A DNA stretch of 55,992 nt, filler included, from Streblomastix strix (taxonomy: Eukaryota), in NCBI GenBank assembly GCA_008636045.1. It is 3 parts of 3 records of this genome, joined end to end, with 100 filler letters (N's around TTAATTAATTAA, not from the genome) between each part and the next. Parts side by side here need not be neighbours in the genome. Positions count along the whole stretch, not along the records: positions 1 to 18,638 come from SNRW01000592.1; 2 more parts are not named here. One strand, given 5' to 3'. Both the position numbers and the translations under genes were made by a program. The notes beneath the pieces were generated by a model that saw only the letters and a list, made by a program, of their open reading frames with translations, was not told the DNA's origin and did not search any database. Shown piece by piece: positions 1-55,078 of the stretch; within the stretch, counting starts at the first letter, position 1; each line of letters begins with the position of its first letter.

Positions 1-172
1 TGATAAATTATTACAAATAGTCATTATGATTATTTTTCAAGGCAAACTTTGTGGATAAATTTTTACAGGTTAAACAAAAAGAGGCTCGTATAATCCTTAC
101 GGTTTATTTTTCCGAGTTTGCCACACATATTAAAAATATTGCCAATTTCCTCAATAATTAGTAATTCCGATT
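1..172 (+). repeat. Left terminal inverted repeat of element 1
   Basis: Gapless match to the reverse complement of 18467-18638, with 16 mismatches in 172 nt by hand count. Confidence 0.95.
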
Positions 173-253
173 AACCCCATCCAAATAAACAATAGTTAAT
201 TTATCTATGGGTAATAGATAAAAAATAAATTCATTTTTTTATTTGTGTTACAA

Positions 254-3200
254 ATGTCCAATTTATCGAAATAGGAATTATAAAAGATAATAAAAATATC
301 TAATAATTCTACAATCGGAACTGTTGCTTTACTCAATTAACGAAAGACTGAGTTACTAAAATAACTAAGTTTTCCTAGACGATGGGGAAGATATAACTTT
401 ACTAAAATAGTTTCATTCATCGATGAAAAATAGATGGGTTAATTATAGGATGAAGTTATATAAGAGGACTTATTTAAGAGATAGAAACAAATAGTTAAAG
501 CATCTAACTTTAAAGAAACTAAACAAAAGATAGCTAAGTTATAACACTTTACTTAATAAGAGATAGATGAGTTATAAGAAAAGATATAGTTACATAAAGA
601 TAAAACTGTTCAATAGTAAGACAATTAAAATTATCTTAAGGCTCATATGTTTACTTATCCTTAAGAACCTGTTGATTGTCGAGAAGCTATAGTATAAGCT
701 AGAAGATATAGAGATACTGAAAATATAATTCCAATTAATGATGGGGTATCAATTAAATATTATGATAATAACATTGAAGACTTTGATGATATTATTAATT
801 TAATAAATTAAACTTATGCAAAAAATAATAGAAGAGCTTATAAGATATAATTTATCTTCGGTACTATTTGTGAAGAATTAGAATATGGAAACTTTGTTTA
901 TAAATGTTAACCAATATAAGAAAATTTTATATAAGTACACACTCCATCTATGATAATTAGTAATGAATCACTTGAAGAATATAAATAGTACGTTAAGAGT
1001 TGTGTAATTGAGATGTAAGAATTTTAACAAACCGAATCAACTAATTAAAGATACATTGGCATTTATTCGATGATGGTGAAAGTTAGCTTACTTCCATTAG
1101 CAGGTCTTTGTATGAAAGAGTTAATCGACTAACATTATAATTCTCATAGGTAATAATTATTATATCAAGTTAGCGATTTGAATGATTGCTTCTGGTTATC
1201 ATATTCCAGATTTATATTAAAAGGTAAAGTATCACCTGATCAAATTAGAAGTGAAGCTAAAAAATAAATGAGAAAATTCTATAATCTAACGAAAAAACAA
1301 TACGACAGTTTCATTAACGACTATAAAGGATTTGATTTAACAGATGAACTAAATAAATTCGTTTTAGAGAAAAAGATTAACGTTAATATATTCTAGTATG
1401 ATTAATAGAAGAAGTTCTATTACTAAGGATAGATATTAAATTATAATAAGATGTATGACATTAATTTATCAGATGATTCAGTTGTAGAAGAAACATAGCC
1501 AAAAGAATCAATTTCAACATTCAACATTCTACTAATTTCATCTACTCATGAAAATTAAGATGTGTATCATGTATTCTACGTAATTAACATAGATGGACTA
1601 ACAAGATAAAAATTTTGTCCTCATTATTAATAATAAGCATTTGACCCTAAGGATAATAACTTCAGTAGAGACTATGAAAGTCATGTTAGCTTATGTAAGG
1701 TTAATAGAGGATAAATAATTAAGAAAGTTAAATTAGATGAATAACCTTATCCTTTCTGCCCCATATCTATCGTAATGAAAAATATGCTTATCTTTTAGCT
1801 AACGAGAAAGAAAAATAGTTTAAACCATCTATATATTATATTACAAATGATTTTGAAACTGTTGAACGTAAAGTATTAAAATATTACGGTAAGCTAACAA
1901 ATGTTAATGAAAAGAAATAAGAGGTAATTGACGAACAAAATAATAAATAATTCATCTTCAATAGCTAATGGATATCAGAACTAATTCCACTATCAGTTGC
2001 ATCATCTATTAAATTTAAATGGAGAGATTAATATTAGTAAGACAATTAATACAAATAAATTGAAACTATATTTGGACCTATAGTTTAAAAGACAATCTAC
2101 TTCGACTTACGAAATTGATCTGATTTTATTAATCAATGGTTAGAATAAATATTCGTTGAAGCTTAATAAGTATTGATAGACAACAAAAATGAAAATGAAT
2201 TAATCCCTTATAAATAAAACGTATCTATTATTGTATTCAACTCTTCAAAATTTGATTAAGCTTAAATTCTCAAAATATTTTCATTGTGATAGATAGATAA
2301 TTTAAAATTATATTGGTTATTTCGGTAAATGTAAAATGATTACAGTTGAAAACAACTAATCTCATTAATAAATAAATTTCATTGACGCATTGAACTATAC
2401 TTAACCAACGGACTTAGATTCGTTTGCAAGAGATTTTTGTAACAGTTACAATTAAATAAAAGGTCTATTTCCGTACGAAGGAATCAATTTCGATAACTAT
2501 GACTTTAAGCTATCTAAACAATAGCTCTTCCCAATTAATGCTTTCGCTTCAACTTTGAAAAATAAATAGATGACTGATGATGATTATAAGATATATCTAA
2601 AAGATGCAATTAATTATAATACAAAATGGGACTATCTATAACACTACAATGAATTAGACACGCAAGTAATGATATAACAATTAGATAACTTAATTTATTG
2701 GATCTATTAATGTAAGGTTGATAAGCTTAGTTTCATGAGTCTAGCTGCAAATGTTAATGCGATTAAATATGCTTTAGCATATAAAGATTTCGGTATTAAA
2801 ACTAACAATCCTTAATAATAAACCAAATCAAAACCATTCATATTAACTGAAGCATATTGGAACTATAAAGTTATAGGATATAATAGATAAGACAAAATAT
2901 AACACAGAAGGACAAATAATAATGTAAATATTAATGATTTCAATTATTATAATAATCTATTCGAACATTCAACCTGTTCTATCGGTGATGATAAGTTTAC
3001 AATGAATAATAAGCCTACATTAGATCATATTAATAATAAGATTCCACATACTAAATCAAACTGTTAACCCTGTTTCTTATATAGCAATAGATAAAAATCT
3101 GATAAAGATGAAAAAATAACAAGACTATTTATTTAACTTCGAAGATATTGTAATACTAATAACCTTCCATAAACAATTGTAAATAATGAAGTATATTAAC

Positions 3201-4801
3201 TTTTAAGACGTTTTATTACTGATTGACTATCAAATGTAATGCACCGACAGAATAGAGCATGTATTGATATAATTAAGCTATACTATTATAACTCTGAGAA
3301 TAAAACTATAACAGTTATCAATACCAATCATACTATATCTCATATCTGCGGAGTTGATTTTAACTCATTATACCCTAGTTGTTTCTCATCGTAATACCAT
3401 CCCTTTAATAAATATACTAATGGTATTATGTATTTGTGTGGATCAGTAAGTGGAATAACTGAAGGATTTAAATATTGCTAGAAAAATAATAGAATCAAAT
3501 GATAGATTCAATGAGAAATGTTAATTATTCATAGCATAATTGAGGGGTCATATCGATGAAAGATATGTTAATAATTTTGTTAATTGTCCACTTATAGCAC
3601 GTAACTTTACTTATACAACTGACGAAAAGACTATCGGTAAATATATGTATGATACAATGAAGTAGTGTGGTACTAAGACAGACAAGTAAGAAAGAAAGCT
3701 AACAAATATATTATCATCCCATGGATAATATATGACGTTTAGTTCTTATTAACTATGGTTCTTAATTGATGATTGTCATTTTATAATCGATGATTTTAAA
3801 CAATTAGTTACTTTTAATAAGCATATTAAATTTAATACTTTCGTTAATGTGTTTATGAACAAATGTATAGAAGCTATTAAATAAAAAAATAGTGGTTTGG
3901 ATAAATTTAGTAAGATGATTTTGAATGTTTCTTATGGAAGTGATGGAATGAATACTGAGAAATATAATAAAATAAAACTACTTACAAAAGATAAGACAAA
4001 AGAAACACATACTAAATAAACCTGGATGAATGATCGTAAGTTAGTTGAAAATTTATTTATTGTTTAATTTAGTCCCAAGAATTGTAAGTATAATACATGT
4101 TTATAAGTAGCATATTTTATTTTAGATAATGCTAAATATTGGTATTTTAATTTCATCTATAATTTTATGTATAAATATTTGGATATGACTAAACTTCATT
4201 TCGTCGAAGGAGATACTGATTCAGCTTATTGGGCTATTAGTGGAAAATAAGTTAAGAGGGTTTATTAAGATGGTCAATGTGTTAACTAGTAAGAGTACGA
4301 AGATAACTTACATCAAGGTTTCATCTATGTAATTAAGGATCAATAATTTTACGACACTAACGCAAAGTATTTCTTTTCAACCATCAAAGGTGATAAGTTT
4401 AATGAGAAAAAACTGTTAGGATTAGCTTTCGAAAATGAAGATGATGAGATGTACGCATTAGATTCAAAGAATTATTATATACATACGTTTAAACGTAATT
4501 CATTAGTTGATGTAATTAAACTTAAAGGTGTTAACTTGAAATAGAACAACATAAACAATTTAGATGTAATTGATAATCTTATTAATGGAAAAAATAACAT
4601 AAGGAACTAACATGAGACTAGGATAGATCAATGATTAAATATACGAAGGTGATGTTTCAAAATAATACCATATGAGTAAGTTATTAACAACTAAGAATGC
4701 TTTAACAGTTATAAAATAAAATAGTTGTATTGAAAAATAGTTAAAGTTGTTTACCGTTTATCCATGGATTAACAATTGAATGTTATCTTGATTACCAATG
4801 A
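254..4801 (+). pseudogene. polB: Protein-primed family B DNA polymerase (pPolB) polyprotein, frameshifted
   Basis: Table-6 motifs: Exo I DFET (~1849), Exo II FNSSKFD (~2236), KGLFPYE (~2460), Pol DFNSLYPS (~3297), K..LNVSYGSDG (~3912), EGDTDSAYW (~4206). Collinear with 49068-53648. Several frameshifts and internal TGAs. Confidence 0.93.
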
Positions 4802-4811
4802 GACGATAACT

Positions 4812-5420
4812 CATTTCTTTTTCTTTTATTTTTCACTATGTTTTCTTTTAAGTTCTTTCTATACTTCAATCGATGAAAGCAATTTTTTCTCACTAATATA
4901 ATTCTTTTTAAATTTAACTTATTTTACTTTCTCAGCTTTAGTTAACACATTATTTAACTACTTATACGAACATACTTTATCGTTAATCTTTATACTTATT
5001 TTCATTAATGGAAATTGATTTGAATTAAGAGAATTTAATCCCCAATCCATTGACCCGAGTCTATAATTCATTGCTTAATTCTTATAGATCATTTATATAA
5101 ATTATAATTCTTCAATTTTCTATTATTGATCTTCTTATTATATTAGTGATTATTATTCTTATAGTTAGTTAGTCGACTAAGGTGTTGTAATTGGCGGCGC
5201 AGGCTGTACTCCAATAAATAAATCATCACCTATTTGTTCCTATTCATCTATAGTTATAAGCTATTTATTTTTTTAAAACTCTTATTCTTTTTCTTTTTCG
5301 TTTCTTTCTTCGATATATATTTATCTTTATAATTTTTCATTCACAGGTTATTCTTTAATTCCTAAATCTTATGATTCTTAATTAGCTAAAGCATTGTAAT
5401 TACCATAAGGTTATACGTCT
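4812..5420 (-). pseudogene. 3' half of a core-like protein gene (probable homolog of 46108-47129), fused to the truncated penton
   Basis: GSMDWG / VLTKAEKVK / SSIEVQKELK align by eye with GGLDWG / VLLSKEERL / ASVKAQEQLK of 46108-47129. Lys-rich C-terminus. Confidence 0.45.
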
Positions 5421-6136
5421 TAATAATTATACCTTATATTAAGGTTATATGACTAATCAGCTCCCTATAGGGGTTCGATGGTTGTTATGAAGTTATTACC
5501 TGTAGGTTCATATATTCTTATTAGACCAATACATCGATAAGCTATAGATAAGTCAGGATCATCTATCCAATAGTGATATAAGATAGCATCTAAACGTAAA
5601 TTTATATAATTTAATGCAGAACTACATATATCAGTTCCATTATTTATATTCAAGCTGTATGAGTTTTTCTACTATTTTTATGTATGTTCATTTACACTAT
5701 TATTGAAACAGATAGAATTGGAGTTAGTACTGTTAACTAGTTCAAAATACTATTCCTGTGGATCAATAAAAGAGTTAAAATCAGTTTATTTCAAAGCATT
5801 AACCTATGGGTTATTCATATAAGACCATTTATTTGAATCTAGTGTATGCATATTATTTATTATAGTATTCATCTTAATTCTAATCGGTGGAATTTATTCT
5901 ATATCTTATAGTTTAAATGTTCCATTTGTATTCTTAATTTATTGTTTCAAATTTAATCCTTTTAGATTATATCTTAGTTCTATATAATCATCGTTAATGT
6001 AGAAGCATAAATTTAAAGGTATATTATTCATGCCATCAATTTAAAATTATCTATATCCAGTAGGGGCTTAAGTTATCCATTCAACATAATCCTTTTCGCT
6101 ATCATTGTTAATTATTTCCAATCCTATTTAAGCCAT
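5421..6136 (-). pseudogene. Putative minor capsid (penton) protein, 3'-truncated
   Basis: MAQIGLEIINNDSEKDYVEW...SALNYINLRLDAILYHYWI...IEP...LNIRY is clearly homologous to the N-terminal half of 47561-49033. Homology ends at about 5425. Confidence 0.7.
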
Positions 6137-6159
6137 ATAATCAAAAATAAATTGAATCA

Positions 6160-6744
6160 ATGAATTGATCTCTATGTAGCCGTTTATCTAATTAGGTTCA
6201 TTATTTCCTTTTAATATTATTCATTTGGAATAGTAAAACTAAGTTTTTCATTTTAATACCTCTTTCATTTAACATATCTTTAAAAATATGATTAATTATT
6301 ACTGCTATTGGTAAATTATCGATGTAAACACTAGATCTTTAAACTATTAAAAGATATTTATTAATATTATTTTTATGTAATCTATGTACTTTGTAATACT
6401 TTCCATCAATGTCATCGTTAAATAGTTCAACTGAGTAAACATAATCATATTGTTTATCTTATGGAACTAATCTAGGTTCCATATGTTATATTTTTTTTCT
6501 ATAATCAGTGTTTTCACGTTAAAGTTGTTCGATAATTCTATCTTTATTATCTTCAAAGGATAGATATGTTTGTTAGCTATTTTCATTAAATTGTATATGT
6601 TATTCATCTTTTAAAATCTTTAGCCAATGTAGTTTTCTATTTACTTTTTGTATAATTTTTTAATTATTTTATTTTGCTACTTCGAGTAATTAATTATGCT
6701 AATCGAGTAATGATTATATCGTTTATAGTTGTTCTAAAGACATT
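6160..6744 (-). pseudogene. Viral hypothetical protein, frameshifted
   Basis: Coding-like in table 6 (MEPRLVPQDKQYDYVY...IDNLPIAVIIN). It recalls C-terminal regions of KilA-N-associated proteins of Trichomonas Mavericks (from memory, unverified). Boundaries approximate. Confidence 0.35.
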
Positions 6745-6801
6745 TATTCACAGATAAAAAAACATATAATAAAAATATATAAGCTTAATTAATTATCATA
6801 G

Positions 6802-7344
6802 TCATAGTATACCAACATATTTAGCAATTTCTTCTATTTCATCTATACAATTATTATATAATATAATATCCAGATCGAACTCTTTATTTTTAAATAAAGG
6901 ATATAAATAGTATTTTGCTAATTAATGTAATCTCTCATCTAATTTATTCTTTAAATTTATTTTTTATAATATACCTAATTTGTTCATATCTTTTTCTTTT
7001 ATCTTCTATTCGTCTATTAATTATTGACGTCGTTTTATTTCTATACTAGTTAACAAAGATATTGGTATATTATCAATGTTTGAATCAATACATGCTTAAT
7101 TAAGTTTATCAATTTATTCTTTATAATATTGATTTTTATCCTTTGGATTATTACATTCTCTTTAGATGGAAATATATGATTGTTCATCATTAGTTTAACC
7201 ATTAAGCTTTTCTTCTATTCTATCAAGTTTATCACTAACCTATTTTAATTACACTGATAAATCAAATAGCTATTATGTATCTTCTAGTAATTTATTTATA
7301 GCTTTTGAGTTATCTTCTATATCATCAACTTAGTTATTATCCAT
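6802..7344 (-). pseudogene. Viral hypothetical coiled-coil protein
   Basis: MDNNQVDDIEDNSKAINKLL... is open for about 130 codons, then frameshifts. Confidence 0.45.
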
Positions 7345-7364
7345 TTGTATAGGGTAAAAATAAA

Positions 7365-8517
7365 TCAATTTAACAATGATTCGAAATATAATTAGTCTTC
7401 TTTCTACTGTTAATCAATCTATTATTTTTCTTCTTGAGTTAATTTCTTCAATTAGATCTTTTACATTATATTGTTTATATGAATGGTTCCGCCTAGGAGC
7501 GACATCCATAATTTTATTTAATAAAAAATATTGTATGAATTTTACTAACAATTTTCATAAGTGCAAAAATCATAATTTTGCATATATGTGAAAAACAGAA
7601 AAAAATATAATTTTTTCTTTACGCTATGAGTTGAGTGCAATATGTCTTGAATTTTTATAAATTATATTTTTAAAAATATTTAAATTTATTTTATTTCATA
7701 ATATTTCAGAAACAGACATACGCGCCGACGTAAATTAAAAAAAATAAAAATTCTCAATTTTAGCGAGTAATTTTAGATTTTTATGTCATTTTTCAATAAA
7801 TTTTAATAATATATTTTATTTAATAAATAAATTGAATGACTATTTTTTATTTTATTTGAGAAACGCGTGCAAGATATGACAGTAAAAAATTCAAAACAGA
7901 TTTTCTTGAAAATATTGATTATTAATATGTATATTTATTAGTCATTTACATTTAAATATTTAAAATTAAACAAAATAAATTAAAATAATAATAATATTAA
8001 ATGTCCATCTTGCAAAAATCAAGAATTTCTTTATCTGTCGATTTTCATCGGCACGTATGGATGTTTCTGAAATATTATGATATAAAATAAATTTAAATAT
8101 TTTTAAAAAATATAATTTTTAAAAATTCAAGGCATAATGCACTCAACTCATAGTGTAGAAAAAAAATTATTTTTTTTTCTGTTTTTCACATATATGCAAA
8201 ATTATGATTTTTGCACTTATGAAAATTATTAATAAAATTAATACAATATTTTTTATTAAATAAAATTATGGATGTCGCTCCTGGGCGGAACCATCCATAT
8301 CTATTGGGTAAATATATTGATATTAACTATATTACTTAAGCTATTTAAAATACTTTGTTTTACCATTTTTAGATTCGAGTAATTAATAGAATTGTTTGTT
8401 TTATAATCTTAGACCATTAAACTTATACTCACCAATCTTATCAATAACCTTACCGCTAGTCTTATTATTATCCTGTAATTAGTGGAATTTTTATTTATCT
8501 AATTTTGTATATGTCAT
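7365..8517 (-). pseudogene. 110-aa viral hypothetical gene interrupted by a MITE
   Basis: Removing 7481-8300 gives a clean 333-nt ORF: MTYTKLDKQ...YIYPID|INNIMQKIQLKK...FESLLN*. Confidence 0.8.
7481..8296. mobile_element. Non-autonomous DNA transposon (MITE), ~255-bp TIRs, ATAT target-site duplication
   Basis: 7481-~7735 (GAATGGTTCCGCCTAGGAGCGACATCC...) is the inverse of ~8042-8296 (...GGATGTCGCTCCTGGGCGGAACCATCC). ATAT flanks both sides (7477-7480, 8297-8300). The AT-rich interior is non-coding. Confidence 0.9.
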
Positions 8518-8574
8518 TTATGTAAGTAGTAAAAAAATAAAAAATAAATTAAAATCACTAGTTTTTATATCTCA

Positions 8575-8784
8575 TTATCTCGGTCCGTTAATATATCTAT
8601 CTACCTCACCTGCTAATTTAGCCCCTACTCCCATAGCTGATCCTATCGCAGGATGAATCATTCTTACTGGAGCAGCTAATGTACCTAGAACTTTATTCAA
8701 TGTTGGAGCAACCCAACCTGCAGCTTTAGTTATACCCCCTAATATTTTACTACCGAAATTTTTAAGACCTGACCAGAATCCCAT
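8575..8784 (-). CDS. Small amphipathic virion protein, adenovirus protein-VI-like (putative membrane-lytic, possibly myristoylated)
   Basis: Intact 69-aa ORF MGFWSGLKNFGSKILGG.... WSGLKNFGS resembles the adenovirus pVI amphipathic helix (LWSG[I/L]KNFGS). N-terminal MG. Divergent from the putative MCP. Confidence 0.7.
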   Translation of the reverse strand: MGFWSGLKNFGSKILGGITKAAGWVAPTLNKVLGTLAAPVRMIHPAIGSAMGVGAKLAGEVDRYINGPR

Positions 8785-8812
8785 TTATTATAATAAAAAT
8801 TAATCTAAGTAA

Positions 8813-11192
8813 ATGTTAAACTGTTTCTTTTTATAATCTAAACGTCATTTGCATCAAGCGAATATTTGAAACGATTAGTATCAGCATAACATTCGGATTA
8901 CATTAATTCATACTTATAATTCTAGGAAGTATTATAGGCTTAAACTATCATACCATAATCATTTGGTATATCTAAGTAATAATTCTTCGACTGGGTCAAT
9001 TTCTATGGTAGCATTATTTTTAGCTTTAGCTGTAACAAAAATAATGGTACTAAATTTTGCAAATTAAATAATTCATAAATTACAATGTCTATACATACTT
9101 TTTAGAGAAATTTATTTAACAATTATTCCGACATTGCTTTTAAAAATTTAATTCTTCATAAATAATTTAAGCTAAAATTAAATTTCTATTTAAAATTTTA
9201 ATTTCTTAAAAATATAAAAAAATTGGTAATTTTATATTTTCTTTGTAATCAGTTTTATTTTTGTTATTTTGAAAATTAGTTACTGTTAAGTTAATATATA
9301 GTTCAAATTATACATATATTGAATTATATGCATCTCCAGTTATCTTGTTTGTTACGCATTAATGATACCATCGGAACTGACCTACTAGCCTACGACTTAA
9401 CTTACGAATGATGGTGCTCATTATACTAGAGCTTTTCTTACAGCTAGAGGAACTGCAACATGTTCATGTATTTAAACTTATTAAATCAGTTGGTAAATTG
9501 AGACACTTAAAATACATTAGCGATATAGGTTAATGGAGTAAAAGTAGATGGAGCAGGTGCTAATAATATAAGAATAAAATAAATATCAAATTATAATGCT
9601 ATTGATACAGGAGTATGGGATACACCTTAAACAGTAACAATGTAATCTGGTGCTACAGGTGCAACTTAATAACCATATAATACTAATGAACACATTAAAT
9701 TTTGGTTAGGTTTCTCAACAGCCTGTGGACCTTTTAATTAGATAGCTATATGTAAAGATTCATAGAAATTGTGGGATATTTCAATATATGCTAGAGAGTA
9801 AGCAATAATTGCATCAAACTCATTGACTGATTAATGTACCTCTAATTCTGTAACAGTTTCTCCACTTGAAAGTATAGTTTAAGATAAACGACATTGTGGG
9901 ATGTTTATTGATATACCTGTATCTGCTATTAGTGTTGCCACTGCTTTTAATTATTTAATTCCATATGATATAATAATTTGTGGAGTAATGGATATATACT
10001 AACTGAACCTTATCTTTAATAGCTTTCCTGTATTTACTAGAAATTATGCGTCATTGTATAAATAATTATGGATGTAAGACTTTCTGTAAGATTTGAAAGT
10101 TGTTTGGTTAAATAAGTATAATCCAGTAGATAATACATATCTAGCATATGCAATGATTCCACCGGAGAAACCGGATATAATTTTCTTGAAAAATAGAGAC
10201 GCAGCAGTAGCGTATGATAAATATGCTATTAGATTGGTTAATATGGAAGGTAAACCTATTAAAACTACTATATCTATAGTTACTATAAGTTAAATTAAAA
10301 ATACTAAATTTACTGAATTATATATATAAATAACAAATGTTTAAATATGAAGAATGAAGGTGTAATTATTGATATGATACGTAATTAAAAAATTATTAAC
10401 TTCCCAACATAAATTTTACGTACTTAATCATCTAACAATCCTGCAAGTAATATCGGAGATAGTGGTGGATTTATTTAAACAATAATGTCATTTGCTAACA
10501 TCAAGTCTTTATTTGTTACATTTGCTATATCATAATATCCTACATGGTTCCTCTCTATTCTATTCAAAACTATTGATTTGATTATAAATTAACGTCAAGT
10601 TATTCCGAGTGCTTATCTTGCATTAACTTAAGATGTTTATGGATAAATGTTTGATTGTTTCGTTGATTAAGATGTAGTTAGTGCCTCATCCGATTTATAT
10701 CATTCGTTATTGTTTGAAAACTAATCTATTGATGATAAGAATTATCCTTATGGTTATGAAGGTGGTGCTAGAATGGCTGAGAATGTGTTTTATAATACCA
10801 CATTGTATTAGGGATCTAAAGCAGTTAAAACATTCTATTCAAATAAGATTATGCTAGCATGGAAATTAGCTACTGATGATTCATTTATGAGAGGATATAA
10901 CTCATCTAAAATAGGAGCAAGAACTAATATACAAGTATAAATTGGATTTACACCTATAGATAATATATGTACCGATGAAGTCATAAGACCTGCTCTTCTT
11001 GATTAAAATGATTTTAAATATTTTACATCCACTAGATGTTATCCCAATATTAAGAATGTTAAATTGACACCATTTCCTCATTATCTATGTGATGGAATTG
11101 TTCGAATAATGTTTGATGATAATCCTGATCCATAAGTACTATCGTTAAAGATTATCGGTGAGATAGGTGGAAGTGCAATTAGATCAGGTTGA
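8813..11192 (+). pseudogene. Putative double-jelly-roll major capsid protein, frameshifted
   Basis: About 600 codons of beta-rich coding sequence (KFWLGFSTACGPFNQIAI...FPTQILRT...LAWKLATDDSFMRGYNS...HYLCDGIVRIMFDD...EIGGSAIRSG*). Assignment rests on size, composition and context. 5' end uncertain (8813-9330). Confidence 0.6.
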
Positions 11193-11217
11193 AAACAATT
11201 ATTTTTACTTATTTTAA

Positions 11218-11720
11218 ATGAATCAAGATCAATAAAAAGTATTCAAAGTATTAATGACAAAGATAATCAAAGATAATTTTCAAGATAATAAGCTTATACA
11301 ATAACTTGATAGTATAATAAATGATATTCTATAAAATAGTGAATGTGTAGATAAATCAAAAGCATATTCTCATCCACTTTACTATGAGTTAATTAACCTT
11401 AGTAATAATTTTGATATAATGAATGAAAGATTGTAATAGTTTAAACGATCAAGCGATATAGAATAATACAATAATAAGATATACAATGAAAATCATTAAG
11501 AATATATAAAAACATATAATAAATGTAAAGAAGAGATAAACATTAATCCAAAAAAATCAAAATAAAATAGTACTTATTAATGGATGCAACTAATGAAGAT
11601 TAATAGATATTTAATTAGTTTGTATCAGAATAGAAACATAAGTTGTTTTACGATTATTATTAATTAAATCCAATCATCTTAAAGGATCAAACTGAGCCAG
11701 TATAGTAAGATAGTCAATGT
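11218..11720 (+). pseudogene. Conserved viral orphan A (homolog of 55287-55745)
   Basis: HPLYYELINL vs HPLIQELMRI, and QIFNQFVSEQ...YYQLN vs QIYIQFVNDE...YYQLN. One frameshift; 3' end approximate. Confidence 0.6.
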
Positions 11721-11949
11721 ATTTTATTAATTCTTTACACTTATCTGAAAGTATTAATTCATCACTATCGTAATACTTATCTTAAATTTCTTAGTAGTAT
11801 TAATTCTATTTTTATTGTGTTTCGTTTATTGGTTTATCATTGATAAAACCTGATCCTCTATGTAATGCTTCAAAGATATGATATACCTCATTATCTGATG
11901 CGTTAATCTTTTATCCTAGTTTTTAAGATATTGTAAACAATTATTCCAT
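11674..11949 (-). CDS. Conserved viral orphan B, 91 aa (homolog of 55079-55327)
   Basis: MEQLFTISQKLG...HIFEAL...IKYIDYLTILAQFD vs EQLYQLATNIG...KIFEAL...IQYINNLIILNQVD. Confidence 0.65.
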
Positions 11950-12503
11950 TTATATACAAATAAATTAAATCATTTTTTATTAAGATAAGACTCAGTTATA
12001 CGTATTGAATCTCGTGTATGATCAAGTAAAGCATATAGATGTCGTACTTATTTTTACTTTAGTTCTATATCAAAATCTACCATTTCTTTAGTCTTTTGTT
12101 TATATTCGTTTAATAGTCATGTTTCTAACTGTTTAAGATAATCATACCATGTTTAATCCATTTTAAACAGGGAACAAAAATATAATCAAAGATCAATATC
12201 AACTTCATATTATGGATATCTTTAATCATCAGCTTTTTGTGCTACTCTAGTATTATGTAACTTACATTAATCATTACTAAGTAATTTCAATTATTTAATA
12301 TACTTAACTTTATCGTTAACAATTTTAATATTAGCTTTGTAATCTGTTATTTGTTAATCTGTCAAGAATTATTAACAAAAATATATTTAAAACATTTCAT
12401 AATTATCATGTGGGATATTACTTGTCAATATTATTTCACCTTAATCATTTGTATATACTATCTTATAATTCATTTTGTATATAAATAAAAAAAAGATAAA
12501 ATA

Positions 12504-14630
12504 TCATCTTTCTTAGTAGCATGGATCAAATTGTAAAGCGTGACCTCTCCAGAATATATTAGTTCCATTACTATAGAATCCACCATCTGTTCCTGTACTA
12601 TTTGTACCCCATACGATTGGATTACCTGCTGAGTAGTTAACTGATCCATTAGATGCTCCAGTTGATGCACCAGTTCCAGCTATAACTGATCCATTGAAAG
12701 ATAGAGTGTTTCCATCAGCTGAGATCATTAGTCCTTTATTATCCTATACAGCTTATGATCCAAGTCCTATCTTAAATTATCCATCTGCTGTAACTGCTAT
12801 GTTCCATTAATCAGATAATGTGCCTGTTGATGAATTTGGATCACAACTTATATTATTTTACTGTATGTTTTTATACCTGTTATCGTTTAATCAGATGATA
12901 TATCAACGAATTAATTACCATTGAAAGTTAATGTGTTTCCATTAGCACTAATTTATAATCCTCTAGTTGTTTCAACTGAATCAGATGACAATTTTATTTC
13001 AAAACCTAATGGATTATTAACATAATTACTTGGTGATGTAAATATTTACCATTAGTCTGCTATATTACCATTGATAGATGATCTACTACATCCTAAAAAA
13101 ATCGATGAACCACCTGTACTTTCTACTGTTCTTGCTATTTTCAAACCATCATCATAATTATTTACTGATGGATTTATTTACGTATTACCATATATATTTG
13201 GAAATAATTAGTATATGCTACTTTACACTGTAGGTAATGCTGGTTGTGCATCAGTAGTTAATATATCAGTAATATTACCTTAAAAAAGCACTTATATCAG
13301 TCTATGATATGAACGTATTATAAGTGAAATCATCAATTCTGCCCCAAAATTCACCATATCTATTTATACCAGTTCCAAAATATAATATCCACACGTAATT
13401 AAAACAGAAAGATTGCGATGTGATAAACTAATATTAATAATTATCTATCTCTATATCTTATGTCCAATGTTAATAAAATTATATATTTCCAAATCCAATT
13501 CTAGTATTTATTTTGAATTCTATTGAATTATCAAAAGTAGTATTTAAAGCAATAAATGTACATAATTTAATATATAGGGGTTATTCAATAACTTGATATA
13601 ATTTACTTGCTAAAACTACTTTTTTTAGTTGTCCCATCTGCTAGTAATATGTCATTATCTGTCCCTCCTGTTTTAATAAATTTAGTTGCTGTAACATTTC
13701 CATCGTAAGTTAATTATTAAAGATGAACGTGATCATTTCTACAATAATAATCACTAGTTCCATTAGTTGCAGCAGTAGCATTTACAAGAGGTACATTTGC
13801 ACTACTTGGATCAACATTAAGAGGATGTTAATGCGTAGCACTAGAATAGATATTAGATGTACCTGCTGTTCCAATACGTGAATCTTTTTGTGGAACTCCA
13901 TTACTTAAATTTACATGATGAGTATGATCTGATCTAGCATAAGAATTAGCTGTACCTTCTTCACCTGTAGCAGTATCTTACTGTTGTATGACAGTAGGAA
14001 CTTACAGTGGATGTTTATGATCTGATCAAGAATATTCATTACTTATACTAACATAACCTGATACAACTAATTCTTAAGGTTTTAATTCACTAGCAGGTGT
14101 AACTTAATCAGGTACTATTTAATCTGTTTCATACCAAATTGTATCATATACCCATACTTATAAATCTTCAGCATTATAAGCATAATCACCTTTAGATACA
14201 TCTTTCAAAGCTAATATCTCATCGTTAGTTATAAAATAACCTCTGAAATGAGTCTATCGTGCTAACTCAGTGTTAATAACTGATACATCAGCCTATAGCT
14301 ATCCTATGTCTTAACTGTAAACGATAATTTATTACTATATGTTTTATAACTATTATTCTAGTATTATTATTTTTATATGAAAACATTGTTTATTAGTTGT
14401 ATATTGTTAACTATCAATAGCCCATCTTACGGTAGTTTCATAGCATAGACAGAAGGATTGTTCGTTTAGCAATAGAATAGATTGTTTTAATCATCTATTA
14501 TTAATTAGTAATCATTATTCGAAGCAATACTATTCGAACTATTCTTTTTTGAGTATTACATATAATCACAAATATCTGAATGTATTAATCGTTTGATTAC
14601 TGACAATTTCTATTACGAAAAAGAAGTCAT
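12504..14630 (-). pseudogene. Tail-fibre-like virion protein with HxH repeats
   Basis: Repeats SDHKH, ARSDHTH, ATHQH, RNDHVH; motifs ATKFIKTGGT...ILLADG and DQTITGIKT; twice GLxISAxGNTLxFNG. The C-terminus is homologous to 55772-55992. Frameshifted. Confidence 0.7.
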
Positions 14631-14644
14631 TTAAGTTATATTAA

Positions 14645-15034
14645 ATGAGTATAATATCTTTAATAATGTCAATATTTAACTATATATTCTATGGTGCTAA
14701 CTTCTTATTATCTGTTATTAGTTTATCGATACCAGATCAAGCATAAGAATTAATCAATGTATTTAAAAAACTATAGAGTTATCTTGATGAAATAGTGATT
14801 GCAATTAGCATTATAATATATATTGTTAAATTCTTCAATCATCGTAAAATGTCAATTAAAAAGGATCTATATTGGAGTTAATATACGATTGGTGAGTTGT
14901 ATTAGTTAGTATAATTAGCGATTGACGATAAGTATCGTAAACTGGCTTGGCATTATAGATACTTAATTACTTTAAAGTTGATTAATTAAAACAATTAAAA
15001 TGAATCTATCAGAAATAAAGCAAATATAATTTGA
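14645..15034 (+). CDS. Conserved small membrane protein next to the ATPase (129 aa)
   Basis: Two hydrophobic segments. NYIFYGANF...SIPD...HYRYL is shared with 54685-55068. Confidence 0.7.
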
Positions 15035-16033
15035 TGCGTATAATATGTTAGATGAATATAAAACAAAACCATTAACACCTAAATCTATCTTTCTTATTAA
15101 CGCAAACCATTATATTGCTGGAGCTGTTGGAAGTGGTAAAACAACATTAATGAGTAAACTAATTGTATTATATAAACATATAATTAACCTTTATATATTA
15201 TACTTCTCAAATATGGGACCTAATGAAAGTATGTCATTAAATATAAATGAAAAAAATATATCAATTAGTAACATAACTTATAATGAAGCGATGATCTTCT
15301 TACCATAGTTCGATGAGATTAAATACAAGATTAAAGAGATATAAACTTATTGGAAATTAAGGCAAATGAAAGTTACATATAATAGTCACTACTTTAAATA
15401 ACTTAAATAGAATATGTTCGATATAAATGAATTAAAAAAAGATGAAACCTATTAATAGTTTACAACTAGAATGAAAGAGTAATTTAAAATCTATTGTATT
15501 GAAACATTCAACGAATATAGCTATCCTACAAAAATAATGTAATTTGTCATACCACCGTTAGTTTAAAATGTTAGTTATGAGAATAGATTGAAAATAATTG
15601 ATACATAAGAAATAGATGAAGATGGAGTTACTATAATTAAAACGTTAAAATTACCTATACTTTAAAATGCAAAATAATTATCTACATTAATGATCTTTGA
15701 TGATATTGGTTCAAATACAGATATATAAAGATATACTTCATAGTTATCATGTACAATTACTCATCTTGTCAATGATAGTAGACATTCTAAAAATACATTA
15801 TTCTTTGTTGCATAACGAATGTAGTACTTGTTTAAAACTGCTCGAATATTATGTCATGTGATAGTCCTTGGGGTTAATTTAGGAGATAGTGATTTGAAAT
15901 ATATTTATGATGAGAATAATATAATCACACTATCAGAGTAAAAGCTAATTATATTATATATAATACATTGAATAAGTATGAATTTATTGTTATTAATAAG
16001 TGGTTTTAAAGATTTGAAATTATTAGGTAATGA
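15000..16033 (+). pseudogene. A32/FtsK-like genome packaging ATPase (frameshift near 15960)
   Basis: Walker A GAVGSGKT, Walker B LMIFDD, Arg finger DSRH, conserved FVAQ, KTARIL. Long insert between Walker A and Walker B. Confidence 0.9.
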
Positions 16034-16185
16034 CAAATTTTATTTTTAATTTAAATAATATTTTGGGAAGTAATTAGTTGTATTTCATTAATGATTATAG
16101 CTTGTAATCATCTATTAGGTTGTATGTTAACAATATAGCAAATAAAAATAGATAAAGAAGTGATTAGTGATGAAGTAAGAAATTC

Positions 16186-17225
16186 AATTTACTCGTGAGA
16201 ATTCATGATGTAAAATTAATAAAATAATTACCATTAATTTCAGCATTTAATGGTGAAGGTAAATTTATAAGAGAATTAGAATTGATAATAATTTACCCCT
16301 GCTAATTGATTATACAATCAAAATATTAATTTATATTAGCTGATGAAGCCGTTAAATGCTACATGGTTACTAACCCTGCAAATTTAGGAATAAAATCAGC
16401 ATCAACATACCCTACAGTAACAGGAATACTAGTAGAACCGCCTTATGATACCCAATGGAGATATACGCTAATATAAACTACTCCAATACAATTAACGACT
16501 AATGAACCTTAACTTAAACCGACTATATAATCTTCTGCGTGAAAGGTTCCACTTTTTGTTGTAATTGGTGCTATAATTTAATCATTGAATTTAAGTGAAA
16601 TACAATAGAAATTAATAATTAGACCTTTAATATCATATGCTTAATCTTCTTATTTTTATATTCCAAATTATGATGAAGTAGATCCAACTTTCCATACACC
16701 ATCTCTATTCGTAGGGTCAATATTACAGCCAGTAAGTACAAAACTATCCCAATTTGCTTTATTTTTCAATATCCTGATACCTTAATCTAATATAGTATCA
16801 TTCGGTTCAATAATTAATTAACCCATCGCACGAGGATACTATTTTGGTAATAAATCACCTACATCAATTATATCACCATTATCTAATAACAATTAATTAA
16901 TTGTTCCATTATTTTTTATAAATTAATTCGCTTATATTGATTGTGTGAACTATTTTTATCCTGTTACTGTTTGATCAGTATTTATTGTCATTAAATTAGA
17001 TAAATCAACTTCCTTAGTTTTCATGTATTAACTGAAATAAGTAAACAATTTAATAATCTCTGTATCAATGAAAGAGGTTAATTATTTTTATAATTTCTCT
17101 AATTACTTTACTTCCTTTTATTTTTATTATATCTCTTACAGTTAATTTTATTTATTAATTAACTCCTCTTCAGTTGGTTCGATTATTGATTCCATTTGTT
17201 TAAAAGTAAACTGATCAGAATTCAT
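16186..17225 (-). CDS. Second tail-fibre-like protein (3' end may be frameshifted)
   Basis: N-terminal coiled coil, then TDQTVTGQKQF and ANQFIKNNGT..LLLDNG motifs shared with 12504-14630, then a beta-rich C-terminus. Confidence 0.6.
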
Positions 17226-17865
17226 TTATATTTATTTCTGATTATGGCTTATCTGATAGTATAGCGAAGTTCATGTTAAAACGATATAGCTTCTCAACTG
17301 AGTTCCAAAGAACATTATCAATTACACTAATACTTACATTTTTAATTAGTACATCCATTACTCTAACAAAGTCTTTCTTCTTATATTTCTTTGCCATACA
17401 TGAATGTAATTACATTAATTGTTCATCTAATACTATTTCAATATCATCTTCGTTTTCGTATGTAATCAATGACCAAAATTTATTGTAGTTATCGCTATTC
17501 AATATGAAATCAACTCCTCGTTTTCTTGATGTAGTTACTCTCCAAATACAATCAATAACAAATTTAAGTACTTCTAGATTTGGATGAGCTAAGAAAGTAT
17601 TTTTAACTGCATCGTCAGGTTCAACTTAAGCAGTTTCTCGTTCTACTTCTTTGTATTTATTTTTATTGTAATGTCTCTTAGGTCTAACTTCATCTTTAAT
17701 GATATCATCTTTAATTTCTTATTAAGGAGTTGATAAGTTTCTCAAGGCTTAATCAATCGATTATAATCTAAGTTTATCTTCCTCAGATAACTCTATCTTC
17801 ATGTTTTCGATTTATTTCTTTGATTTATTTATAATGTGTTAATTCCTCTCGATACTTGAAATCAT
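17215..17865 (-). CDS. Viral hypothetical protein (216 aa)
   Basis: Uninterrupted table-6 ORF MISSIERNQH...INEF*. Confidence 0.65.
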
Positions 17866-17896
17866 TTAAATCTATTAAATATTTTATTATTGATAA

Positions 17897-18118
17897 ATGG
17901 ATAAATCGTAAGCCTTAAGAAAATTAAAAGAAAATGGAACTATATTTGAAAGCTTCATTGGAGGCTATCTAATGTAAATAGGTAAATAGATTAAGATATA
18001 TGAAGATGGATAAAAAGAGTCTTAAAGTATTAACACAAGCTTAGTAAAATAAGTAGTTAAAGATGCCCGTAATAAAAGAATAAAAATAAGTCGAACGATT
18101 AATGTATCAAGACGATGA
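17897..18118 (+). CDS. Viral hypothetical protein (73 aa, basic)
   Basis: Open table-6 ORF MDKSQALRKLKENG...SRR*. Confidence 0.5.
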
Positions 18119-18450
18119 AAACGAAAGTGAAGAAGAATAAGAAGTATAAGTTCCAATAGTTAAAAAGGAAGATTAAGGTAATATAAAAATAACCTACTAT
18201 TAATTATTCTACTCCAAAGATAGATCTTGAAGAACTAATTAAATTGCGAACTGAAAACTAATTTATCAAGAAATAGCATATCGAAGCATAAAAGTAAATT
18301 AATAAATATAGGAATAAACTTAAATCAATGAAACAAGTTAAAGAACCTTCAATTAAAGAATAACCTATTGAATAATATCAAACTTAAGAATAACGAATTT
18401 AAGAATAAGTTAGTGAAAGATATATTAATGAATTCGAGCTATTTTAATGA
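18102..18450 (+). pseudogene. Viral hypothetical acidic/coiled-coil protein
   Basis: MYQDDENESEEEQ..., one frameshift, ends ...INEFELFQ* just inside the right TIR. Confidence 0.45.
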
Positions 18451-18466
18451 TTATTTTTGGAGTTTA

Positions 18467-18638
18467 AATCGGAACTACTAATTATTGAGGAAATTGGCAA
18501 TATTTTTAATAAGTATGGCAAACTCGGAAAAATAAACCGTAAGGATTAAGCGAGCCTCTTTTTGATTAACCTGTATTAATGTTTCCAAACAGTTTGCCTT
18601 GAGAAATAATCATAATGACTATTTGTAACGATTTATCG
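18467..18638 (-). repeat. Right terminal inverted repeat of element 1
   Basis: Reverse complement of 1-172. Confidence 0.95.
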
Positions 18639-44672: not shown

Positions 44673-45830
44673 ATGTAAAAATATATTATATAATTTATAG
44701 ATGATAAAGCGTTTAAAGTCTAAAAATAAAATTAGTGGATTTCATTAAAAATTTGAATTTTGTATTTAAAAAGTTATTCAACATAAATAATTTGGGTGAA
44801 TAATTTGAAGATAAATCTATTTCTTAATGGTATAAGATTTATCTCGATAATTTTTAAAAGTATAATGCAGAACGAATAAAGTAGAACGTTAAACCTTAAA
44901 AACCAAAGGTTTAATAGGATCGATAAAAAATTAAGAATTCATTTAGAAGTAAAGTTAAAAATAAAACCGATATTGTTTAAGACATTAAATTGAAACCATT
45001 AAAGAAGTATTAACGTCCCTACTTCTCACCTGAGTTAGGGAGCTGGGAAATAGATATTATATTTATAATGCATCCAACAATTAATAAAGTAATTCAATAA
45101 TATCTATTTTGCACTAACATTAATACTAAATTCCTAGTAGAATTTCCAATTAAAGATAAATCAGCAAAAATGAACTATTAAAGTGTATTAAATAATTAAA
45201 ATCTAAGTAACTTGTTTCTAATATTAGATCAGATGGTGAATCTGCGTTAGGTAGTAAATAAGTTAAGGATTATTTGAAAGAGAACGACATAAACTTCTTC
45301 TATAATTCATCCCCATTCGTTAATAAAAATAGAGTAGTTGATTCGGTAGTTAGAACGATAAGGAATGCATTTGAAAAAGATCCTTAACAAATGTCTAATA
45401 ACAAGCAATTATTATAAATAGTTGATGATTATAATAACACAAAGCACTCTGCTTTTAAATAGAAATTCTCTCCTAAATAAGTAAATGAGAATGAAGATTT
45501 AGAAGGAATATACATTAGATAAAAAATGAAGGAATTAGCTGATGCAAAAGAATTACAATACAAGAATAATCTATAGGATCTAAAGAAAGGTAGTATAATA
45601 ACTATACATCTTGATTTGAAAAAGACTGCACACGGATTTGAGAAATAACGTAGACAATTTAATGAAATAGCTACATTTATAAAATATGAGCTTGGAAATG
45701 TTGTTTGTGAGCTATTGAAACCATACAACGATATTAAGATTGTTGAAGTACCAATTTATTATACTCATAAGGTCACAAACAATATTGAAACATTAAAAAA
45801 TAAATGTAAGAGAACTTTTAATTAGTTTGA
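44673..45830 (+). pseudogene. int: Retroviral-type (rve) integrase
   Basis: GSWEIDI (D1), IRSDGE (D2, 45232), RVVDSVVRTIRN (third residue, 45340), YNNTKHSAF..FSP. Two frameshifts. Confidence 0.85.
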
Positions 45831-45850
45831 TATTTTTTTTAGATAAATAA

Positions 45851-46102
45851 ATGGATAAAGAAAACTTAAAACTTACTTAAAAGGTTGGAAGACCGAAGAA
45901 ATATTTTACTGAATAGGAAGCGTAAGAAATGGCTAAGAAATAACGTGGTGAAGCTAAGAAGAGATAACGTTTAAAGTAAAAATAATTTAAAGAATAACTC
46001 TCTATTTAGCAAACAATAATAATAGACACATTAAATAAAAAAATATTATCAGATGATATTTTAGAGTAAATTTCTAAATTAATCGAAGATCAAAATCTAT
46101 GA
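45851..46102 (+). CDS. Small basic AT-hook-like DNA-binding protein (83 aa)
   Basis: KVGRPKKYFTEQEA followed by a basic helix. Confidence 0.7.
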
Positions 46103-46107
46103 TCATT

Positions 46108-47560: not shown

Positions 47561-49033
47561 ATGACTAGCATCGGCTTACAGATTATAAACTCAGATTCAG
47601 ATAAGGATTATGTAACATGGCAAACGACTATCCCAAGTGGAAGTTAAAGCTTTCAAGTTAATAGTATCAATAACATTCCAATTAATTTGACATATTATTT
47701 GAACAATGATTACATAGAAATGTAGCATAATATTGTATCAACTGGTTCAAGAAAAATCTATTTCTAATAGTAGATTGGAGAGGATCAGTTTCATTGTTAA
47801 TTGCTAGATAGATTATCTCCAATACGTATTAGTTTGAATACAGCTTATAATAATGCTTATAATAGTGATCAAACAATATAGGGCTATAAATATAATCCAT
47901 AATTACTATTCCTAACACTGACATAATATGATAATTTTACAGATACAATTGAGAAATATTTTAGGACATAATCAACTTTGAATAATGGAGCGATATGCTT
48001 TAGTAATGCAATTAACAAGCATGTCTAAAAATTATAGAATAATATGTTCTCATTAAACTAGAATTATGGATAAGATTTAGTGAATTCAGCTATCGATTAC
48101 ATTAACCTTAGAATTGATGCATTTCTATATCATTACTGGATCTTAGATTCCACAGTTAGTGAGTTATATCGAATGATAGGATTAATACGATTATATTGTC
48201 CTACATGAAATAACTATATAACATCAATTGAACCTAAATATTTTACATAAGGTAACGGATTATCAATAAGGTACCTATTCGGTAAGTAAGTTGACATAAA
48301 TGCTAATTGTACATTTACTACATCTGATTCTTAACCAATTAATGTATAACAATTAACAATGTAGTAAGTCATTAATAATATTAACACATTTCCAATAAGA
48401 ATTATCAATTCATTACCAGCATTTAGTATTGTTGAATGGTAAAATATTTATACAGCAGTTGGAAGAACTAATTATTATGGACAATTTATACCATAAGTTG
48501 TGACTGATTATTGTTAATAAAATAACCTTTATTGGTTCGCTAATCGTATACTTTTATCTCCAAATCTATACGTACAATTAGTTGGTGGATAAGATCTTTA
48601 TGATGGATAGAACGAGAATTGAGCCAATTAATTGGTTAATTTATCATCAGCTATTAAGTAAATTGATCTCGAAGTATGGTTCTATTAAACTAACCATGAT
48701 AGTTAAAACTTAGAAGTTGATCTTCCAATATTCTGTCCATACATTGGAAATTTTCTAGAGTACCCATAAATGTTGATTATTTGCGTATCTAATTAATTTT
48801 AAGGAATAACTCTTTAATCAATAGGAGGTAATGGATTCTCAAACGTATGCTTTAAATAGAATTTGGTTGATGCACCAGTATTATGGGGATAGAATATGAT
48901 GAGTCAGTAATGTCTTGTGGGATAGAACAAATCGTTAGTCTTTACATTATACGATAACTTTGGAAGGAAGATACCGATGTAAAATATGGATATGTATAAT
49001 AATAATTTACTTCTAGAGATACAATTTTAATGA
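47561..49033 (+). pseudogene. Putative minor capsid (penton) protein
   Basis: C-terminal LVFTLYDNFGRKIPM.N....LLLEIQF matches the pattern of Polinton/PLV penton C-termini (hxLxDxxGxxI). N-terminal half homologous to 5421-6136. Frameshifts and two TGAs. Confidence 0.7.
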
Positions 49034-54668: not shown

Positions 54669-54684
54669 TTTCAAAAATATTAAA

Positions 54685-55068: not shown

Positions 55069-55078
55069 AATTAATTAA

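What the first reader, a model, noticed from the sequence alone, without database searches (positions are those of the whole stretch)
1..18638. Near-complete Polinton-like virus of an apparently undescribed family, hidden by the non-standard code
Seen: TIRs, pPolB, A32 ATPase, capsid-like and fibre-like genes, plus a second diverged member on another contig with rearranged gene order. Established: pPolB, A32 ATPase and jelly-roll capsids define Polintons/PLVs (Preplasmiviricota). Inference: this is a virion-forming family endogenised repeatedly in a table-6 protist. It combines phage-like fibres, a pVI-like peptide and orphan core genes, and standard-code annotation misses it.
Basis: partly seen in the sequence, partly recalled or inferred. 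Interest (0 to 1): 0.88.

Follow-up and report, generated by a model that had tools for sequence, protein, structure and literature searches.

The report
Broken Polinton-type virus, unplaced capsid lineage
This is a broken, likely integrated copy of a Polinton-type DNA virus, likely from the termite-gut protist Streblomastix, written in the host's unusual genetic code; its predicted double jelly-roll capsid protein belongs to a very divergent, likely undescribed lineage that also has unbroken standard-code relatives in environmental sequence.

Summary
Contig 1 (1-18638) has terminal inverted repeats and table-6 genes for a protein-primed polymerase, a packaging-type ATPase, a major capsid protein (MCP), a likely penton, two fibre-like genes and a 70-aa basic peptide. 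A second, rearranged member on contig 3 lies beside host DNA and has an integrase-like gene. All 82 close MCP homologues are Streblomastix strix proteins. A confident model of an environmental homologue matches double jelly-roll capsids (Z 17.4). This copy is dead: frameshifts, a MITE in the MCP gene and a deletion through the penton. 'Hidden by the code' is wrong: Bellas et al. 2023 reported 820 table-6 MCP hits in S. strix, and NCBI holds these proteins. Fibres and membrane-active peptides are known in Polintons; pVI homology was not shown. What looks new is the capsid lineage. It differs by eye from the S. strix MCP printed in that paper (cluster MMPC_40; no computed comparison). It matches no Pfam, PHROG or PDB sequence, and groups with five deep environmental branches (20-30% identity). 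One standard-code contig shares four genes with it. Verdict: a probably new lineage of a known kind of virus.

The parts
2..194 (.). Left terminal inverted repeat; the outer end is probably cut off by the contig end
254..4790 (+). Protein-primed DNA polymerase B, broken by at least four frame changes and a TGA. Likely vOTU Cys/His motifs (recalled pattern) near 1181 and 1565; endonuclease VII/HNH-like insert
   Evidence: contig-3 copy PF03175 E 2e-7, phrog_1035 endonuclease VII E 3.8e-12 and phrog_1907 DNA polymerase E 7.7e-11
4811..5431 (-). 3' part of a separate Gln-rich gene with a basic tail, fused in frame to the penton candidate by a deletion in this copy
   Evidence: P0258 and P0259 match from 5431 downwards only
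5432..6136 (-). 5' half (about 235 aa) of the likely penton (minor capsid protein); the 3' half is missing
   Evidence: 47% identical to the 490-aa contig-3 gene; homologue on L002 E 1.7e-14; Atlas leads to V18-19 and DUF5901 clusters
6198..6740 (-). Orphan ORF
   Evidence: coding signal; no family above cut-off
6802..7344 (-). Orphan ORF, coiled-coil-like
7448..8330 (.). Non-coding foldback with arms of about 300 nt (91% over the 216-nt core); likely a secondary non-autonomous insertion
8572..8784 (-). 70-aa basic peptide gene, head to head with the MCP gene; likely membrane-active (the 'pVI-like' peptide)
   Evidence: homologues follow the MCP gene on L001 and L002, 40% identity, E 8.7e-5
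8842..11192 (+). [quoted passage not shown]
8993..9383 (.). 391-nt MITE-like insertion in the MCP gene, 24-nt terminal repeats (19 of 24 match), 3-nt target duplication
   Evidence: other copies join 8986 to 9395 as DNA
11203..11748 (+). Conserved orphan gene, frameshifted; homologue on contig 3 at 55287-55775
11674..12473 (-). Two small orphan ORFs (99 and 95 aa)
12504..14400 (-). Fibre-like gene 1, broken by frame changes and a stop; Thr/Gly-rich repeats
14645..15034 (+). Small hydrophobic protein; homologue beside the ATPase on contig 3
   Evidence: 38%, E 1e-21
15000..15971 (+). P-loop ATPase of the A32/FtsK packaging type (by motifs); frame open for 323 aa
16203..17225 (-). Fibre-like gene 2, 340 aa, open
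   Evidence: shares a short repeat with the L002 fibre (E 0.046), which hits phrog_7911 tail protein at E 3e-5
17215..18450 (.). Two orphan genes (minus strand to about 17860; plus strand from 17934, frameshifted)
18445..18637 (.). Right terminal inverted repeat; related sequence runs past the contig end in laid contigs
44990..45912 (+). Second member: retroviral-type integrase-like gene, frameshifted; named from recalled motifs only
   Evidence: no database hit
47561..49033 (+). Second member: full-length penton candidate, 490 aa in one frame with two internal TGA
   Evidence: C-terminal motif shared with the L002 protein
49068..53648 (+). Second member: pPolB, with internal stops
53718..55992 (.). 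Second member: ATPase (-), small hydrophobic gene (+), conserved orphan (-), end of a fibre gene (-), then the contig end

Best explanation
Contig 1 is a mutationally broken, likely integrated copy of a Polinton-type linear DNA virus that uses the TAA/TAG=Gln code of its likely host Streblomastix strix, and its capsid protein belongs to a divergent lineage predicted to fold as a double jelly roll that is likely distinct from the S. strix capsid cluster already published. The intact virus would be an 18-22 kb genome with terminal repeats, copied by its protein-primed polymerase. An A32-type ATPase would pump it into an icosahedral shell of the MCP, with pentons and fibres at the vertices. The small basic peptide encoded beside the MCP would help it cross membranes. 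Insertion into host DNA is likely done by a retroviral-type integrase like the one on the contig-3 member; this copy has lost such a gene or borrowed it in trans. Shown: repeats, code use, gene homologies, breakage, many copies, predicted MCP fold, standard-code relatives. Inferred: integration of this copy, virions, penton and peptide roles, integrase identity.
For: TIRs. Code. 82 of 82 MCP hits among 956 candidates are S. strix, 40-83% identical. 26 S. strix MCPs form one side of a branch (SH-aLRT 100, quick tree) with about five subgroups. Six gap-free 652-aa copies are 85-97% identical. The model of homologue P0239 has pLDDT 82.7 and pTM 0.83. Foldseek gives 151 PDB matches at E<=0.001, best 8.5e-11. 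The VIA top 15 rows are all double jelly-roll proteins, best Z 17.4, rmsd 4.1, 350 aligned. S. strix and environmental MCP profiles align over 589 columns, probability 100. L002 shares 4 of 17 tested ORFs with contig 1 at E<1e-3: MCP, peptide, ATPase, penton candidate. The contig-3 member shares its contig with a host flippase gene fragment (PF16209, E 1e-10) and a retrotransposon.
Against: The confident model is of an environmental homologue (about 25-30% identical to the S. strix proteins). The model of the close homologue P0006 was poor (pLDDT 50) and gave no match at E<=0.001 and no Z above 4.6. Contig 1 shows no host flank, target duplication, integrase or protease. The penton candidate has no Pfam or PDB match. 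The integrase-like gene has no database hit. The window's peptide is not more amphipathic than its shuffles (282 of 2000 reach its value), though the L002 peptide is (2 of 2000). Distinctness from cluster MMPC_40 rests on reading a printed sequence and on absent identifiers and motifs, not on an alignment. L001-L003 show no polymerase or integrase in the DNA held.
Confidence: 0.8

Rival explanations
1. It is a member of the already reported Metamonada (MMN) group of S. strix elements, counted among the 820 MCP hits of cluster MMPC_40.
For: Same host and code. By eye the first jelly roll resembles the printed Histomonas, Trichomonas and S. strix MMN sequences at motif level. The clusters were loose (25% identity over 30% of the length) and the S. 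strix entries came from iterated PSI-BLAST.
Against: None of the four S. strix MCP identifiers seen in the supplement is among the named hits. None of six identifiers of this family is in the visible part of the file (weak, the file is cut). Two MMN-type motifs match 0 of 305 stored proteins while this family's motif matches 128. The printed S. strix example is 562 aa against about 650 here.
Confidence: 0.2
2. Contig 1 is not integrated but an assembled free or episomal linear genome from the sequenced cells, and its breaks are assembly or amplification errors.
For: The contig begins and ends at the same position of the repeat, and no host flank is present.
Against: The two repeats differ at 13% of sites. 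The MCP gene carries a MITE with a target duplication that other copies lack. A deletion fuses two genes. Such damage fits a decaying insertion.
Confidence: 0.06
3. The lineage is close to the ancestry of adenoviruses, and the peptide is a true homologue of protein VI.
For: The N-terminus resembles the amphipathic start of pVI (recalled), and the gene is next to the MCP gene in all three loci where both are seen. The poor first model ranked hexons first at E 0.19-0.3.
Against: With the good model the hexon scores Z 7.5 against 14-17 for NCLDV and virophage capsids. There is no pVI match in Pfam, PDB or the Atlas; the nearest named family is cecropin, at a low score. Cupiennin-like peptides are already known from adintoviruses. 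The ATPase looks A32-like.
Confidence: 0.07

Closest known systems
Metamonada (MMN) MCP group of Maverick-Polintons/PLVs in S. strix, Trichomonas, Histomonas and Entamoeba (PMC10120064)
   Same: Same likely host, same use of table 6, double jelly-roll MCP recognised only by structure prediction, motif-level likeness of the first jelly roll.
   Different: Longer MCP (about 650 against 562 aa for the printed S. strix example) with no shared identifiers or diagnostic motifs in what I could see. The nearest relatives found are unnamed environmental proteins, not parabasalid ones.
Polintons/Mavericks (Polintoviricetes; definition in PMC11161782)
   Same: TIRs, pPolB with likely vOTU motifs, packaging ATPase, MCP, likely penton; integrase-like gene in the contig-3 member. 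Nuclease insert in pPolB, as reported for nematode and oomycete pPolB2 (10.1101/2023.08.22.554363).
   Different: No Ulp1-type protease motif found in contig 1, contig 3, L001 or L002; no integrase on contig 1; MCP without detectable sequence similarity to profiles in Pfam or PHROGs.
Polinton-like viruses (aquintoviruses, gosseviruses)
   Same: Genome size, fibres with phage-like repeats, flexible gene order.
   Different: Most PLVs lack pPolB and RVE integrase (PMC11161782). Eight pattern scans of IMG/VR, the main source of the 2026 framework, found no relative (insensitive test).
Adintoviruses (PMC8502044)
   Same: Small predicted membrane-active accessory protein in the virion module.
   Different: Protist host; no gasdermin-like or PLA2-like gene seen; unrelated MCP sequence.

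Membership tests
Preplasmiviricota (eukaryotic, Polinton/PLV grade) | [quoted passage not shown] | tested here: met
   Model of homologue P0239; Foldseek E 8.5e-11; VIA Z 17.4, rmsd 4.1, 350 aligned; homology to the S. strix family
Preplasmiviricota (eukaryotic, Polinton/PLV grade) | [quoted passage not shown] | tested here: inconclusive
   Conserved gene with a recalled penton-like C-terminal motif; Atlas feature neighbours at 0.91 include V18-19 (10% of members) and DUF5901 (13%) clusters; no Pfam or PDB hit; no model of my own
Preplasmiviricota (eukaryotic, Polinton/PLV grade) | A32/FtsK-type packaging ATPase | tested here: inconclusive
   Walker A, Walker B and RH..Q motifs conserved in 3 of 4 aligned copies, the fourth being frameshifted (motif meaning recalled); phrog_2666 packaging ATPase E 1.3e-5 for the L002 copy; no Pfam A32 hit
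Polintons (Polintoviricetes) | Protein-primed family B polymerase | tested here: met
   PF03175 above cut-off on the contig-3 copy; about 50% identity to contig 1
Polintons (Polintoviricetes) | Terminal inverted repeats | tested here: met
   193 nt, 87%
Polintons (Polintoviricetes) | 5-8 bp target-site duplication | not testable with these tools
   The contig ends inside the repeats and no genome is held
Polintons (Polintoviricetes) | Retroviral-type (RVE) integrase | tested here: inconclusive
   Motif-level candidate on contig 3 only, frameshifted, no database hit; no match to it on contig 1, which has an internal deletion
Polintons (Polintoviricetes) | Ulp1-family maturation protease | tested here: inconclusive
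   A recalled catalytic-motif scan found no credible candidate in contig 1, contig 3, L001 or L002; all four are incomplete or carry a deletion
MMN cluster MMPC_40 (PMC10120064) | MCP at 23-25% identity or more to cluster members | tested here: inconclusive
   No MMN sequence could be aligned; identifiers and motifs argue against membership
Adenoviridae-like | Hexon-type capsid protein as nearest fold | tested here: not met
   Hexon Z 7.5 against 14-17 for NCLDV and virophage MCPs
Adenoviridae-like | Protein VI homologue | tested here: inconclusive
   No match in Pfam, PDB or Atlas; short peptide with only three aligned copies

The most novel reading that the evidence does not exclude
An undescribed family-level lineage of preplasmiviricots, a distant sister of the still unplaced metamonad Mavericks. 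It has at least five deep branches with unbroken standard-code genomes of about 20 kb, one branch that recoded itself to table 6 and colonised the Streblomastix genome in several waves, and a conserved capsid-linked membrane peptide, possibly without a maturation protease. It would give the missing links for placing metamonad Polintons in virus taxonomy.
Probability: 0.55. Interest if true: 0.65.

Novelty: new variant of a known kind. Interest (0 to 1): 0.5.

Why it matters
A June 2026 framework for Polinton-like viruses says that Metamonada Maverick-Polintons remain ungrouped because their capsid genes are too divergent, and that more genomes from related organisms are needed (10.64898/2026.06.19.733378). 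This lineage supplies a second metamonad capsid type with a chain of environmental relatives at 20-30% identity, enough for a confident structure model. It would raise the viral share of the S. strix genome above the published estimate. It also offers a natural comparison of one virus lineage in two genetic codes. The gene kit itself is ordinary for Polintons.

Tried and rejected
No whole genome is held, so copy number, flanks and intact loci could not be read. Pfam, PHROGs and NCBIfam gave nothing above cut-off for any contig-1 ORF; PDB sequence searches with the MCP and penton alignments gave nothing. The first structure model, from 50 S. strix sequences, was too poor; its ranking of adenovirus hexons was not borne out by the better model. 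Eight scans of IMG/VR gave one locus, L004, a phage replication ATPase matched only at Walker A and rejected. Two GTDB scans found nothing. These pattern scans need exact short words and are weak evidence of absence. An intron in the MCP gene was considered and rejected: other copies lack the insert as DNA and it has terminal repeats. The 441-aa ORF as one protein was rejected as a deletion chimera. No RNA holder was listed, so expression is untested. The complex predictor was not available, so MCP-peptide binding has no verdict. The careful MCP tree did not finish; the quick tree has long branches and no outgroup. Contig 2 holds host-like genes and shows no real similarity to the element. Homology of the contig-3 ORF at 45765-47030 to the Gln-rich gene was not shown. 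Sources were checked for 10 of the 150 listed profile hits; 61 weaker hits were not listed and could include MMN proteins.
Full report
Layout and code. The window is three contigs joined by N spacers; the finding is the whole first contig, 18,638 nt at about 25% GC. Its ends are inverted repeats of 193 nt, 87% complementary. Under the standard code the window has one ORF of 150 aa or more. In nine viral ORF segments chosen under table 6, Gln is written TAA 124 times, TAG 42, CAA 32 and CAG 7. As an independent test, I masked the TAA/TAG codons of two MCP pieces and aligned them to 14 standard-code homologues: Gln was the commonest opposite residue, 63 of 360 against a 4.6% background.

Host. 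No genome is held for the window. The last third of the MCP found 82 proteins of 493 aa or more among 956 candidates. All are labelled Streblomastix strix, 40-83% identical; NCBI calls them hypothetical and UniRef names 12 of them 'Major capsid protein'. The four runs listed for this DNA are labelled termite gut metagenome, from at most two studies, and one may be the window's own source. The host is therefore likely S. strix; this is inferred from homologues.

Gene map and damage. From the left: pPolB (254-4790, at least four frame changes and a TGA), a chimeric ORF, two orphans, a non-coding foldback, a 70-aa peptide, the MCP, three small genes, a broken fibre, a small hydrophobic gene, the ATPase, a second fibre and two orphans. 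The MCP gene lies in four pieces. It lacks the ATG at the homologous start and carries a 391-nt MITE-like insert with a 3-nt target duplication; other copies skip the insert as DNA. The 441-aa ORF at 4811-6136 joins the first 235 aa of the penton candidate to the last 200 aa of a separate Gln-rich protein, so an internal deletion removed at least about 1.2 kb. This copy cannot make virions by itself (inference). Related contigs run on beyond position 18637, so the true termini and any target duplication are outside the contig.

Second member. Contig 3 carries homologues of pPolB, penton candidate, ATPase, two small genes and a fibre end, in another order and orientation. Its pPolB scores PF03175 above the cut-off and holds an endonuclease VII-like insert, as reported for nematode and oomycete pPolB2 (10.1101/2023.08.22.554363, passages). 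Upstream lies a frameshifted gene with the acidic motifs of a retroviral-type integrase; this name rests on recalled motifs, and four database scans gave no hit. The same contig holds a host flippase fragment and a retrotransposon, which supports integration for this member.

Copies. A quick tree of 26 S. strix and 14 environmental MCPs puts all S. strix sequences on one side of a branch with support 100, in about five subgroups; the careful search did not finish and there is no outgroup. Six 652-aa copies align without gaps at 85-97% identity, so some capsid frames appear to be still open, although these are predicted gene models.

Relatives outside the host. A profile of 50 S. strix MCPs scored 211 of 1.84 billion representatives at E<=0.001; 150 were listed. 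I took the ten long divergent ones. They come from Logan, ENA, JGI and NCBI records without organism names, three clusters on contigs of 20-22 kb. A second search added four. They are 20-30% identical to the S. strix proteins and mostly 22-35% between branches. A metagenome scan gave 3 loci from 206 stretches. L002 (13.4 kb) has open standard-code frames, and 4 of its 17 tested ORFs match contig 1 at E<1e-3: MCP, the peptide next to it, the ATPase and a 701-aa penton candidate. It also has a fibre with a weak phage-tail hit. No polymerase or integrase lies in the DNA held. Eight IMG/VR scans and two GTDB scans found no true relative.

Fold. A model of P0006 from S. strix sequences alone was poor and gave no significant match. 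With 101 sequences including the environmental ones, P0239 folded at pLDDT 82.7 and pTM 0.83. Foldseek gave 151 PDB matches at E<=0.001, and every listed row is a viral double jelly-roll capsid at 7-10% identity. VIA ranked 15 double jelly-roll proteins first: PBCV-1 Z 17.4 (rmsd 4.1, 350 aligned), Sputnik 14.7, mavirus 14.4, PRD1 11.4, adenovirus hexon 7.5. BFVD agreed. The S. strix and environmental profiles align over 589 columns, so the fold carries over to the window's gene by homology. No known capsid stands out as close kin.

Penton and peptide. The penton candidate is conserved in both window members and L002, and ends in a motif that I recall from minor capsid proteins. Atlas neighbours include clusters with V18-19 (10%) and DUF5901 (13%). 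Pfam and PDB gave nothing, so this is a likely, untested assignment. The peptide is 40% identical between the window and L002 and adjoins the MCP gene in three loci. The L002 peptide is strongly amphipathic (2 of 2000 shuffles) and the window's is not (282 of 2000). No pVI match was found. Binding to the capsid could not be tested.

What is in print. PMC10120064 (passages, one methods section, parts and searches of two supplements) reports S. strix viral elements in table 6, 820 MCP hits, all in cluster MMPC_40 of the Metamonada group. The spreadsheet is cut before the S. strix rows of Table S5 and the figshare data were not visible; they could overturn the novelty claim. The printed S. strix example (562 aa, first 400 shown) resembles this family only at motif level by eye. 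None of four named S. strix entries is among my hits, and two MMN-type motifs match 0 of 305 stored proteins. The 2026 framework (10.64898/2026.06.19.733378; abstract, passages, one methods section; supplements closed) leaves metamonad elements ungrouped and drew on IMG/VR. 10.64898/2026.10.13.758929 (one passage) does not mention oxymonads in its main text. PMC11161782 (first part and passages) gives the Polinton definition used here. PMC12220804 (passages) describes phage-like fibres in PLVs; PMC8502044 and 10.1101/2025.02.07.637071 (passages) describe cupiennin-like genes in adintoviruses. Searches pairing Streblomastix with Polinton or major capsid returned only PMC10120064 and an unrelated Yaravirus preprint; searches returned nothing; others gave the papers above or unrelated ones. 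Subscription papers are mostly not covered.

Verdict. The element is real, viral and broken. Viral elements in table 6 in this host are already known, and so are fibres and membrane peptides in this class. The probable novelty is a second, deeply divergent capsid lineage in S. strix with unbroken relatives in the standard code. I put about 0.75 on its being outside the published cluster. Interest 0.5.

Noticed in passing
window 8993-9383: MITE-like insertion with 24-nt terminal repeats and a 3-nt target duplication inside the MCP gene; laid contigs hold similar sequence, so it may be a host transposon family.
   Followed up: partly
window 7448-8330: Non-coding foldback with arms of about 300 nt and a short AT-rich spacer; a second insertion or an internal regulatory or origin element.
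   Followed up: partly
window 37425-41300: GC-richer retrotransposon with reverse transcriptase (PF00078, E 1e-23), weak RNase H and adenine methylase hits, DIRS-like by recall; short repeats at 39818, 41719 and 42643.
   Followed up: partly
window 43272-43970: N-terminal fragment of a host phospholipid flippase (PF16209) between the retrotransposon and the second viral member.
   Followed up: partly
window 20184-30905: Contig 2 has a 472-nt inverted duplication (99%), a 217+101-nt inverted pair and a 300-nt exact direct repeat around two related Gln-rich host-like genes; a recent inverted duplication or an assembly artefact.
   Followed up: no
L002 5380-7293: Three tandem paralogous orphan genes of about 200-220 aa between the ATPase and the penton candidate; no homologue found in the window.
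   Followed up: no
L002 25-46, 3808, 7290, 9553: A short repeated motif recurs in intergenic spots beside structural genes; a possible late promoter or terminator signal. The contig's left end also has 105-120 nt tandem repeats.
   Followed up: no
P0062: A S. strix gene model fuses this MCP to an HNH_3 nuclease and a piece of the pPolB N-terminus; likely a mis-joined model, but it shows a free HNH gene between MCP and polymerase in another copy.
   Followed up: partly
window 49305-49508: 126-nt tandem duplication in the 5' part of the contig-3 polymerase gene; 93-nt repeats also occur in the contig-1 fibre at 13824-14060.
   Followed up: no
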